Below are positions 36,100 to 37,362 of a DNA stretch of 64,000 bases, piece after piece. The notes below the pieces were generated by a model that ran no database searches, was not told the DNA's origin, and was given only the letters and a program-made list of their open reading frames with translations. Position 1 is the stretch's first letter, and every line of letters starts with the position of its first letter. Made by a program: the position numbers and the translations under genes. The DNA is from Escherichia coli (GTDB lineage: Bacteria > Pseudomonadota > Gammaproteobacteria > Enterobacterales > Enterobacteriaceae), in assembly GCF_048403405.1 (NCBI RefSeq), contig NZ_CP183129.1. One strand, written 5' to 3'.

Positions 36100-36145
36100 T
36101 TCATTGCCACGTTATCTGTAAGCGATAATTCATAACGCAGACAAC

Positions 36146-36361
36146 TTAGTTAGAGTTAATTAGCTTATCAACCTCTGTAAGAGATAAAGTTGCCATCTCT
36201 GCAACGTCTTCCCGAGACATTCCTTTACTCAGAAGACGCTGTGCCAGCCTTACCTTCCGGAGTCCCTCTTTATATCCCTTCTGAAATCCCTTCTGAAATC
36301 CCTTCTCTTCAAACCACTGCGCCAACGTCTGCCTGGTTTCTCTCCGTGTCTTTATTTCCAT
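36146..36361 (-). CDS. Stand-alone RpnS-like small protein (paralog of the RpnC C-terminal tail), 71 aa
   Basis: ORF MEIKTRRETRQTLAQWFEEKGFQKGFQKGYKEGLRKVRLAQRLLSKGMSREDVAEMATLSLTEVDKLINSN aligns with RpnC residues 241-310; ATG preceded by AAGGGA; lies in a tandemly duplicated DNA unit. Confidence 0.5.
   Translation of the reverse strand: MEIKTRRETRQTLAQWFEEKGFQKGFQKGYKEGLRKVRLAQRLLSKGMSREDVAEMATLSLTEVDKLINSN
36263..36310 (-). repeat. In-frame 12-bp tandem repeat (TCCCTTCTGAAA x2 plus degenerate flanks) encoding GFQK-GFQK in the small ORF
   Basis: Direct repeats read in sequence at 36275..36298. Confidence 0.7.
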
Positions 36362-36429
36362 AGGTTCCCTTAATTATCTGGTCAGTTAACAATAACAATT
36401 ATCTGGCTATAACTGATGATGCAGACAAC

Positions 36430-37362
36430 TTAGTTAATCAGCTTATCAATCTCGGCAAGGGGTAAATTTGCCATCTCTGCAACGTCTTCCCGAGACATTC
36501 CTTTACTCAGAAGACGCTGGGCGAATTCCTGACTTACTTCCTGTGTTACTTCCTGTATTACCTCTTGTCTTACCTCTTGTCTTACCTCCTGTCTTCCTTC
36601 CTGTCTTCCCCTCTCTTCAAACCACTGCGCCAGCGTCATCATAGACTTCCCTCCCGTTTCCCTGTCTCTCAGCACACCATAAAACAAATCCGCTTGTTCA
36701 GTATGACCGCGTTGCAGCATATAGTTTTGCATGGCAACTAACTGACTTCCGCTAGTGTACCCTTCGTCAATCAGCGTGACCAGTTGCTCCAGCAATAACA
36801 TTAAGTCGCGCTGGCGAATATGTTTTTGCAGTAGTTCGAGAATCGCAATCCGCCGATGTTGCATGATTTCGTCATCCGGTGTGATGGTGATATCCACCAG
36901 CGGGAAAGGGTTGTTGTAAACGCGTCGCGCCAGCTCCGGCGAGTAAAACATATCAAACCAGCACATTGAGAGCGGATAAGGTGTGGCCTCGCCCTGATAA
37001 AACAGAATCGGCACCACCAGCGGCAGCTTATCGTGATCCGCCTCCAGATGCCGGTGCATGGCAGCAATAGAATAACGCATCATGCGAAAGGCCATTTTCT
37101 TATCCGGCTTACTTTGGTGTTCAATCACCACATGCAAATAACCGGGATTACCCTGCATTTGTACGGAATAGAGTACGTCCGTGCTGTGCCCTTTCAGGCT
37201 TTCCTCAATAAAACTCCCCGACTCAAGATGCAGCGTGTCGAGGTCACACAGTTCGCGTAGCTCCGCTGGCAAATGGATATCCAGAAAGTCGCGAGCCGTT
37301 TCCGCATGCATTAAAAATTGTTTAAATACCGCATCATGCGGTGTGGTACTCGGTGCATCCAT
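36430..37362 (-). CDS. rpnC: Recombination-promoting nuclease RpnC (YadD; YhgA-like PD-(D/E)XK family)
   Basis: 310-aa ORF MDAPSTTPHDAVFKQFLMHAETARDFLDIHLP...; C-terminal tail with RQEV repeats; position between panC and panD. Confidence 0.8.
   Translation of the reverse strand: MDAPSTTPHDAVFKQFLMHAETARDFLDIHLPAELRELCDLDTLHLESGSFIEESLKGHSTDVLYSVQMQGNPGYLHVVIEHQSKPDKKMAFRMMRYSIAAMHRHLEADHDKLPLVVPILFYQGEATPYPLSMCWFDMFYSPELARRVYNNPFPLVDITITPDDEIMQHRRIAILELLQKHIRQRDLMLLLEQLVTLIDEGYTSGSQLVAMQNYMLQRGHTEQADLFYGVLRDRETGGKSMMTLAQWFEERGRQEGRQEVRQEVRQEVIQEVTQEVSQEFAQRLLSKGMSREDVAEMANLPLAEIDKLIN
36529..36609 (-). repeat. In-frame 12-bp tandem repeat array (about 6.5 copies, TTACCTCTTGTC-like) encoding RQEG/RQEV/IQEV/TQEV in the RpnC tail
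   Basis: Direct repeats read in sequence; correspond to protein residues 252-278. Confidence 0.75.

What the first reader, a model, noticed from the sequence alone, without database searches (positions are those of the whole stretch)
36121..36662. Tandem duplication of the rpnC 3-prime end creates a separately encoded RpnS-like tail protein
The panC-rpnC spacer is 366 bp here, whereas I recall it as under 100 bp in K-12. The extra DNA is a second copy (36127..36366) of the last 240 bp of rpnC (36421..36660), about 294 bp offset. Copy A keeps the reading frame and has acquired its own ATG with an AAGGGA ribosome-binding site. It encodes 71 aa that align with RpnC residues 241-310, i.e. the C-terminal tail that begins at an internal Met-Met. 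Rpn proteins are PD-(D/E)XK recombination-promoting nucleases, and their C-terminal tail is reported to be made as a separate short protein that antagonises the full-length toxic protein. A second, diverged, independently encoded tail could act as an extra antitoxin or immunity module, or as a specificity variant. The conserved blocks are nearly identical between the copies while the repeat cores differ completely.
Basis: partly seen in the sequence, partly recalled or inferred. Interest (0 to 1): 0.6.

Follow-up and report, generated by a model that had tools for sequence, protein, structure and literature searches.

The report
Known extra RpnC tail gene (rpnCSs)
The extra DNA between panC and rpnC is a real, separately encoded copy of the RpnC tail, but it is the already published rpnCSs gene carried by about 29% of complete E. 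coli genomes, so the finding is correct but not new.

Summary
A 71-aa ORF (36146..36361, minus strand) lies 68 nt downstream of a 310-aa rpnC (36430..37362). It repeats the last about 68 codons of rpnC plus about 25 nt of its 3' flank. The flanking blocks are 84-91% identical and the 12-nt repeat cores differ.

It is not new. Zhong et al. [quoted passage not shown] It parallels ypaA/rpnESs in K-12.

A junction-specific probe finds it in 1555 of 5426 complete E. coli genomes, ST131 included. Escherichia marmotae has the same arrangement, so it is an old polymorphism that K-12 lacks.

What I can add:
- The ORF is intact in all 17 loci read, although PGAP sometimes flags it as a pseudogene.
- Its repeat core never has the same length as the neighbouring RpnC tail (here 20 vs 30 aa). 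Published data say only equal repeat numbers neutralise RpnC-L, which argues against a simple spare antitoxin.
- Single-copy rpnC alleles carrying Ss-type tails exist, so the copy also acts as a recombination partner.

Expression and function of rpnCSs remain untested. Interest is low.

The parts
36430..37362 (-). rpnC (yadD), full-length RpnC-L, 310 aa, PD-(D/E)XK Rpn family nuclease
   Evidence: ORF. NCBIfam TIGR01784 at 280 bits, E = 1.9e-83. An identical locus in strain TUM14771 is annotated rpnC.
36430..36642 (-). Intragenic rpnC-S reading frame (M241 to stop, 70 aa), the published in-frame antitoxin
   Evidence: Translation. The GGGAGGG Shine-Dalgarno sequence at 36649-36655 is read. RpnCS expression was shown in K-12 by Zhong et al..
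36526..36607 (-). 12-nt (4-aa) repeat array of the RpnC tail. The core between WFEE and AQRLL is 30 aa (RQEG/RQEV/IQEV/TQEV/SQEF).
   Evidence: TRF: 6.8 copies, 87% matches. Core parsed.
36362..36429 (-). 68-nt rpnC-rpnCSs spacer. Its first ~25 nt are the duplicated 3' flank. It holds two CCAGATAATT direct repeats (36397-36406 and 36372-36381) and the AAGGGA Shine-Dalgarno sequence (36366-36371).
   Evidence: Sequence. No sigma-70-like site and no terminator. No stable fold, z = -0.88. The length is 68 nt in 16 of 17 loci (65 nt in L011), and identity to the window's spacer is 90-100%.
36146..36361 (-). rpnCSs: free-standing 71-aa RpnS-like ORF (MEIKTRRETRQ leader + TLAQWFEE + 20-aa core + HTH-like C-block)
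   Evidence: Protein WP_000404121.1 is annotated 'hypothetical protein' or 'RpnC/YadD family protein'. More than 100 homologues have the same leader.
36274..36306 (-). 12-nt repeat array of rpnCSs (KGFQ units). The core is 20 aa and ends ...KVRL.
   Evidence: TRF: 2.8 copies, 100% matches. Core parsed.
36122..36152 (-). Duplicated stop-codon context and 3' flank (partner at 36406-36436)
   Evidence: Repeat family D3, 84% identity over 31 nt.
36070..36098 (.). G+C-rich hairpin shared by the convergent panC and rpnC/rpnCSs transcripts; the likely terminator of the rpnC-rpnCSs transcript
   Evidence: RNA fold of 36055-36150 (-): a 10-bp stem, MFE -28.6 kcal/mol, z = -2.85. The same hairpin follows rpnC in K-12.

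Best explanation
This is rpnCSs, the free-standing second copy of the RpnC small (antitoxin-type) protein gene that lies downstream of rpnC in a minority of Escherichia strains.

Shown here:
- An old partial duplication copied the rpnC segment from the TLAQWFEE codons to about 25 nt past the stop.
- The copy has its own ATG and Shine-Dalgarno sequence and an 11-codon leader of unknown origin.
- The ORF is intact in every locus read.
- Its 4-aa repeat core varies independently of the core in rpnC.

Inferred:
- It has no promoter-like site of its own, and no terminator separates it from rpnC. It is therefore most likely co-transcribed with rpnC and the short internal rpnC-S transcript, and translated from its own Shine-Dalgarno sequence.
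- The product should fold like RpnS, with one long repeat-bearing helix and a small HTH-like helical unit, and should oligomerise through the long helix.

In this strain its core is 10 residues shorter than that of RpnC-L/RpnC-S and has a different sequence. For that reason I think it is not an efficient neutraliser of the neighbouring RpnC-L; I put the chance that it is a matched spare antitoxin at about 0.2.

Its best-supported role is as an alternative tail allele. Homologous recombination across the near-identical blocks can replace the C-terminal domain of the toxin and its in-frame antitoxin in one step. This also removes the duplication and gives single-copy alleles with Ss-type tails. 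Any direct modulatory activity on RpnC-L/RpnC-S complexes is untested.
For: Identity:
- Protein and DNA homology to the rpnC tail and a C-terminal match to the Rpn family model TIGR01784, E = 2.7e-10.
- The published description of exactly this arrangement as rpnCSs.
- PGAP's name 'RpnC/YadD family protein'.

Prevalence and age:
- The junction probe finds it in 1555 of 5426 complete genomes, always on the chromosome.
- E. marmotae has the same panD-rpnC-Ss-panC order with a 68-nt spacer.

Evidence that it is a coding gene:
- The ORF is intact in 17 of 17 loci read.
- All length variation keeps the reading frame.
- The invariant residues are those conserved in RpnC-S.
- The first 60 nt are 59-60 of 60 identical across all loci.

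Co-transcription: no promoter-like or terminator-like site in the spacer, an unstructured spacer, and a strong hairpin only after Ss.

Fold: the AF2 model has helices at 7-19, 22-45, 50-56 and 61-70. The best structural neighbours are HTH domains, in line with the paper's account of RpnAS.

Specificity mismatch: S and Ss core lengths are 30/20 here. Across all 17 loci they are 10-50 for S and 14-26 for Ss, and never equal. The paper shows that one extra repeat abolishes neutralisation.

Recombination partner:
- The complete genome P31_YH1_02.21 has a single-copy rpnC. Its tail is an Ss-type core plus the Ss C-block of this window, followed by the Ss 3' flank.
- Mosaic Ss alleles carry S-type cores or S-type ends: P0061, P0030, P0064.
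Against: - No expression data exist for rpnCSs. The paper tagged only RpnESs/YpaA, because K-12 lacks rpnCSs.
- The one-repeat rule was shown with engineered K-12 RpnC variants, not with natural S/Ss pairs, so Ss might still bind RpnC-L.
- The lack of length matches is no more than random pairing would give: about 0.6 matches are expected in 17 loci. It shows absence of matching, not avoidance.
- pN/pS of the Ss C-block is 0.68, against 0.33-0.38 for the S C-block. This is compatible with relaxed constraint.
- The AF2 model has only moderate confidence (pLDDT 68.8). No structural hit was significant, and the RpnAS crystal structure was not retrieved.
- Our Pfam-A scan gave no significant hit, although PF27070 is precomputed on homologues.
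Confidence: 0.9

Rival explanations
1. Spare, matched antitoxin. RpnCSs binds the C-terminal domain of the neighbouring RpnC-L just as RpnC-S does, and adds antitoxin dosage.
For: It is homologous to a proven antitoxin domain. It lies directly downstream and is probably co-transcribed. The conserved TLAQWFEE and HTH-like blocks are retained. The analogous RpnESs is synthesised in K-12.
Against: Core length and sequence differ from the neighbour in all 17 loci read. A difference of a single 4-aa repeat abolishes neutralisation of RpnC-L in the published assay. In addition, 71% of complete E. coli genomes manage without the gene.
Confidence: 0.2
2. Non-functional remnant. It is a by-product of RpnC-promoted or slippage-driven duplication that is slowly decaying and repeatedly deleted.
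For: It is absent from about 71% of complete genomes. It has no promoter-like site of its own. The C-block pN/pS of 0.68 is higher than for the S copy. PGAP flags it as a pseudogene in 4 of the 12 carrier records fetched from RefSeq and read besides the window's twin L002.
Against: The PGAP pseudogene flags are artefacts, because the ORF is intact in all 17 loci, including E. marmotae. The start codon, Shine-Dalgarno sequence and first 20 codons are almost invariant. No frameshift or stop was seen despite frequent indels. The same residues are invariant as in functional RpnC-S.
Confidence: 0.15
3. Orphan immunity protein against non-self Rpn toxins. Ss would neutralise incoming RpnC-like nucleases carried by plasmids, phages or recombined alleles whose tail length matches Ss rather than the resident tail.
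For: Ss cores found in one strain occur as the tail of full-length RpnC in another. For example, the L010 Ss core equals the L015 RpnC core. The specificity-by-length rule would allow such cross-neutralisation.
Against: tblastn of Ss found no genuine plasmid copy. Nine of the ten matching 'plasmid' records are 0.4-4.9 Mb, most likely chromosomal sequence filed as plasmid, and the tenth (149 kb) matches only 41% of the query. There was no phage match. rpnC alleles sit at a fixed chromosomal locus, so encounters would require homologous replacement.
Confidence: 0.1

Closest known systems
rpnCSs of Zhong et al., PNAS 2023 (PMC10400941; Fig. 2I, section 'Varied Expression of Small Proteins')
   Same: [quoted passage not shown] It derives from rpnC, carries variable 4-aa repeats, and can be lost by deletion or by fusion with the rpnC N-terminal region.
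   Different: Nothing differs in kind. The paper gives no expression or functional data for rpnCSs. It does not report the prevalence (about 29% of complete genomes), the presence in E. marmotae, or the consistent length mismatch with the neighbouring tail found here.
ypaA / rpnESs downstream of rpnE in E. coli K-12
   Same: It is a free-standing RpnS-like ORF on the same strand, directly after its parent rpn gene. The protein was detected by SPA tagging. The Ss core differs from the parental core by one inserted repeat: GWQEGKLEGLHEQ against GWQEGMHEQ.
   Different: It arose independently, according to the paper's phylogeny. Its spacer is 12 nt instead of 68 nt, and the ORF starts at the residue that corresponds to the internal S start (MTIAERL), with no novel leader. 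The two tail families have different sequences. NC_000913.3 still flags ypaA as a pseudogene.
RpnC-S, the intragenic antitoxin translated from the internal Met-Met of rpnC
   Same: It is 59% identical, with the same TLAQWFEE motif, the same repeat-bearing helix and the same HTH-like C-block.
   Different: RpnC-S is obligatorily identical to the tail of RpnC-L, because they share a reading frame. Ss is a separate gene with an 11-residue leader. In this strain its core is 20 aa of KGFQ/KVRL type, against 30 aa of RQEV/QEF type.

Membership tests
RpnS / RpnSs small proteins (C-terminal domain of Rpn/YhgA-like nucleases; Pfam PF27070 HTH_Rpn_C, formerly DUF4351-like) | Sequence homology to the C-terminal domain of an Rpn protein | tested here: met
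   BLASTP against RpnC 243-310: 59% identity, E = 2e-21. TIGR01784 positions 213-273 of 273, E = 2.7e-10; this is below the whole-protein cutoff, as expected for a fragment. PF27070 is precomputed on many homologues. Our own Pfam-A scan returned no significant hit.
RpnS / RpnSs small proteins | RpnSs subtype: a separate ORF on the same strand, directly downstream of the parental rpn gene | tested here: met
   The ORF at 36146-36361 (-) lies 68 nt after the rpnC stop. The same layout is found in 17 of 17 loci.
RpnS / RpnSs small proteins | Strain-variable 4-aa (12-nt) repeats that begin 8-20 residues after the initiating Met | tested here: met
   12-nt repeats at 36274-36306. The repeats begin at residue 20. 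Core lengths range from 6 to 26 aa among homologues.
RpnS / RpnSs small proteins | Three-helix fold with a long first helix that mediates dimerisation (RpnAS crystal structure) | tested here: inconclusive
   The AF2 model has a long helix at 7-45 plus two short helices, but pLDDT is only 68.8. All Foldseek PDB hits have E > 0.5; they are HTH domains and RpnAS was not retrieved. The PDB sequence search found only a designed repeat protein.
RpnS / RpnSs small proteins | The protein is synthesised in the cell | not testable with these tools
   Only sequence signals are available: ATG with AAGGGA 4 nt upstream. The paper shows synthesis for RpnESs, not for RpnCSs.
Rpn L/S toxin-antitoxin pair (Zhong et al. 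2023) | The small protein neutralises the cognate RpnL, which requires the same number of 4-aa repeats as the RpnL tail | tested here: not met
   Only the sequence prerequisite could be tested. The core is 20 aa in Ss and 30 aa in RpnC-L of this strain, and the two are unequal in all 17 loci. Neutralisation itself cannot be tested here.
Rpn L/S toxin-antitoxin pair (Zhong et al. 2023) | An adjacent full-length Rpn nuclease (PD-(D/E)XK) with an internal start for RpnS | tested here: met
   The 310-aa RpnC scores 280 bits on TIGR01784. The internal GGGAGGG-N6-ATGATG is retained. The N-domain is 95% identical in nucleotides to K-12 rpnC.

The most novel reading that the evidence does not exclude
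rpnCSs is not an antitoxin for its neighbour. It is a stored alternative tail cassette, kept translatable and mismatched in length. A single homologous exchange across the near-identical flanking blocks swaps the oligomerisation and specificity domain of the RpnC toxin together with its in-frame antitoxin. This would be a two-cassette switching system for a defence nuclease, possibly catalysed by RpnC itself. The unusually invariant first 60 nt of the ORF and the CCAGATAATT repeats in the spacer could then be cis-acting elements rather than only coding or translation signals.
Probability: 0.2. Interest if true: 0.5.

Novelty: already known. Interest (0 to 1): 0.15.

Why it matters
The gene itself is already published and is routinely annotated, although under inconsistent names, so the finding adds no new object.

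The open question is what a free-standing RpnS copy does when it is always mismatched with its neighbour. In the Rpn system the antitoxin is normally locked to its toxin because they share a reading frame. A detached, independently varying copy is the one place where that obligatory co-evolution is broken.

If it acts as a specificity-switching cassette or a modulator, that would bear on how hypervariable defence toxin-antitoxin modules diversify. This would be a modest extension of known biology rather than a surprise.

Tried and rejected
- **Assembly or chance artefact:** rejected. The junction is present in 1555 complete genomes and there is a 100% identical locus in strain TUM14771.
- **K-12 rpnC as a simple N-terminus/Ss fusion of this window's alleles:** not supported. 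The K-12 C-block (ANLPLAEIDK) is S-like. However, the last two codons and 3' flank of K-12 match the E. marmotae Ss end. The direction of change cannot be determined with the data in hand.
- **Fusion alleles P0018 and P0020 from metagenome or Logan contigs:** not used as evidence. The contigs end inside rpnC and could be repeat-collapse artefacts. The complete genome L015 was used instead.
- **Duplication extending upstream of TLAQWFEE:** rejected. Local alignment of 36330-36429 against upstream rpnC scores no better than shuffled sequence.
- **Own promoter or terminator in the spacer:** none found.
- **Pfam-A scan of the 71-aa protein:** no significant hit. PADLOC gave no hit for either protein.
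- **PDB searches:** the sequence search and Foldseek did not retrieve RpnAS.
- **Plasmid and phage searches for matching free-standing or full-length copies:** of the ten matching 'plasmid' records, nine are 0.4-4.9 Mb and most likely chromosomal sequence filed as plasmid, and the tenth (149 kb) is a partial match to 41% of the query. There was no phage match.
- **Supplements of the paper and its preprint:** no text on rpnCSs is held.
- **Later literature:** a search found no follow-up on RpnSs function.

Full report
**What is in the window**

The region is the E. coli panB-panC / rpnC / panD locus.
- panC is on the + strand and ends at 36064.
- A 310-aa rpnC (yadD) occupies 36430..37362 on the - strand.
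- panD starts at 37636.
- Between panC and rpnC lies a 71-aa ORF on the - strand, at 36146..36361.

The panC-rpnC spacer is 365 bp here. In MG1655 it is 73 bp, and no ORF is annotated there.

**Check of the observation**

The duplication is real. The direct-repeat search gives three co-linear blocks:
- 36154-36244 vs 36432-36522: 91% identity over 91 nt.
- 36250-36329 vs 36558-36637: 71% identity over 80 nt.
- 36122-36152 vs 36406-36436: 84% identity over 31 nt. This block lies beyond both stop codons.

The 71-aa product aligns with RpnC residues 243-310 at 59% identity, E = 2e-21. The degenerate motif for AQWFEE occurs only at these two sites in 64 kb, against 0.03 expected.

Between the conserved blocks each copy has its own 12-nt repeat array. 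The ORF has 2.8 perfect copies (KGFQ-type). rpnC has 6.8 copies (RQEV-type).

The ORF has an ATG at 36359-36361, preceded by AAGGGA 4 nt upstream. The internal Met-Met start of RpnC-S, with its GGGAGGG Shine-Dalgarno sequence, is intact.

Homology begins only at the TLAQWFEE codons. The 11-codon leader (MEIKTRRETRQ) and 43 nt of the spacer resemble nothing in rpnC or elsewhere in the window.

**It is already described**

[quoted passage not shown] They name it rpnCSs. They show by phylogeny that it derives from rpnC, independently of ypaA/rpnESs downstream of rpnE. [quoted passage not shown]

The same paper establishes three further points:
- RpnS proteins are antitoxins of the RpnL nucleases.
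- RpnAS is a dimeric three-helix bundle whose long first helix carries the variable 4-aa repeats.
- For RpnC, adding one repeat to only one partner abolishes neutralisation.

A literature search found no later work on RpnSs function.

**Prevalence and age**

A probe confined to the junction (36330-36432) matches 1555 of 5426 complete E. coli genomes, always on the chromosome and nearly always once per genome. Carriers include ST131, APEC, ETEC and commensal isolates.

RefSeq annotates the ORF inconsistently: as 'hypothetical protein', 'transposase', 'RpnC/YadD family protein', or a pseudogene 'missing N-terminus'.

The protein search returned more than 100 free-standing homologues with the same leader. 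They come from E. coli, E. marmotae and cryptic Escherichia clades. In E. marmotae the gene sits in the same panD-rpnC-Ss-panC context, with a 68-nt spacer.

The duplication is therefore an old polymorphism of the genus, not a recent event in this strain.

**What I could add: 17 loci read in full**

The 17 loci are the window, 13 complete E. coli genomes and 3 E. marmotae assemblies. One of the E. coli genomes (L002, TUM14771) is identical to the window across the 651-bp query and in every region compared here.

1. *The ORF is always intact.* This includes the four records that PGAP marks as pseudogenes. All indels keep the reading frame.

2. *The 5' end is unusually conserved.*

| Region | Identity to the window across the 17 carrier loci |
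|---|---|
| First 60 nt of the Ss ORF | 59-60 of 60 |
| rpnC N-domain | 93-100% |
| Spacer | 90-100% |
| Ss C-block | 80-100% |

3. *The cores never match.* The core between WFEE and A(Q/L)R(L/F)L is 20 aa in Ss and 30 aa in RpnC of this strain. S/Ss pairs elsewhere are 10/18, 34/20, 10/22, 26/16 (four loci), 30/16, 38/14, 10/26, 26/20 and 34/26. In E. marmotae they are 34/18 (two loci) and 50/18. There are no equal pairs. Random pairing of these lengths would give only about 0.6 matches, so this shows absence of matching rather than active avoidance.

4. *Ss cores fall into two length series.* Cores ending ...KVRL have lengths that are multiples of 4. Cores ending ...QEF have lengths of 4n+2.

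5. *The tails are mosaic.*
   - Ss genes occur with K-12-type S cores (P0061, P0064).
   - Ss genes occur with K-12-type C-ends (P0030).
   - The complete genome P31_YH1_02.21 has a single-copy rpnC. Its tail is an Ss-type core plus the exact Ss C-block of this window, followed by the Ss 3' flank. This is a fusion allele.
   - Strain A3 has a single-copy tail that equals the Ss C-block of two other strains.

6. *Substitution pattern.* The blocks are short, so these ratios are noisy.

| Region | pN/pS |
|---|---|
| Ss C-block | 0.68 |
| S C-block | 0.33-0.38 |
| rpnC N-domain | 0.05 |

**Expression signals**

The spacer holds no sigma-70-like promoter and no terminator-like site. It does not fold better than shuffled sequence (z = -0.88). 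A strong G+C-rich hairpin (36070-36098, z = -2.85) follows Ss, and the same hairpin follows rpnC in K-12.

The most economical reading is co-transcription with rpnC and with the abundant internal rpnC-S transcript reported for K-12, followed by translation from the gene's own Shine-Dalgarno sequence. This is inference; no expression data exist for rpnCSs.

**Fold**

AlphaFold2, run on a 39-sequence alignment, predicts helices at 7-19, 22-45, 50-56 and 61-70, with pLDDT 68.8. The PDB neighbours are HTH domains (TrpR, DeoR, resolvase), and none is significant. A PDB sequence search found only a designed HTH-repeat protein.

This is compatible with the published RpnAS description of a long helix plus an HTH-like bundle, but it does not prove it.

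**How it most likely works**

Identity as rpnCSs is secure (about 0.95).

For function I rank the readings as follows. The percentages are rough and the readings overlap.
- (a) An RpnS-type oligomerising protein with a specificity different from the resident L/S pair. Its demonstrable evolutionary effect is to serve as a recombination partner that can replace the toxin's C-terminal domain and its in-frame antitoxin in one step (about 45%, including any modulatory activity).
- (b) A plain spare antitoxin (about 20%). The length mismatch and the published one-repeat rule argue against it.
- (c) A decaying remnant (about 15%). The intact ORFs and the invariant start region argue against it.
- (d) Immunity against non-self RpnC alleles (about 10%). 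No genuine plasmid or phage copies were found.

**Verdict**

It is a published, widespread and already annotated gene. Novelty: already known. Interest is low at 0.15. The only open point is the untested function of a detached antitoxin-like copy that is always mismatched with its neighbour.

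Noticed in passing
window 36302-36361 (- strand; first 60 nt of the rpnCSs ORF): These 60 nt are 59-60 of 60 identical in all 17 loci compared, including E. marmotae. There are no synonymous changes within the 14 E. coli loci, except a single unexamined difference in L022. 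The three E. marmotae loci differ at one position, the E2D change. Across the same loci the rpnC N-domain differs by up to 7% and the spacer by up to 10%. This suggests constraint at the nucleotide level, or recent spread.
   Followed up: partly
window 36397-36406 and 36372-36381 (- strand): A 10-nt direct repeat, CCAGATAATT, occurs twice with 25 nt start-to-start, in the rpnC-rpnCSs spacer just upstream of the Shine-Dalgarno sequence. It is nearly conserved in E. marmotae. The spacer has no promoter-like match and no stable fold. The repeat could be an operator-like element.
   Followed up: partly
window 36330-36405 (- strand): The origin of the 11-codon leader (MEIKTRRETRQ) and the adjoining 43 nt of spacer is unknown. 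There is no similarity to rpnC or to anything else in the window beyond chance. No full-length Rpn protein with this leader appeared among the 120 best protein hits.
   Followed up: partly
L003, L005, L007, L010 (RefSeq records of strains CP53, ETEC4067, AZ 191, EcPF5): PGAP marks rpnCSs as a pseudogene ('incomplete; missing N-terminus') although the ORF is intact. Elsewhere the same gene is named hypothetical protein, transposase, or RpnC/YadD family protein. In NC_000913.3, ypaA (= rpnESs, shown to be translated) is still flagged as a pseudogene.
   Followed up: yes
L018 (strain 100248) and L019 (strain MSI001), between the rpnC terminator hairpin and panC: These single-copy strains carry an insertion of about 150-230 bp. 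From memory of the consensus, it looks like an ERIC/IRU-type intergenic repeat. It is absent from the window.
   Followed up: no
window 61182-61295 (+) and 4011-4056 (-): Two Rfam matches score above the gathering thresholds: tp2 sRNA (103 bits) and the HtrA 5' UTR thermometer (77 bits).
   Followed up: no
window 54325-54598 and 57666-58480: There are two long tandem repeats: a 96-nt unit in 2.4-2.9 copies and a 303-nt unit in 2.7 copies. From memory of the E. coli map, the second probably corresponds to the three lipoyl domains of aceF. Neither was checked.
   Followed up: no
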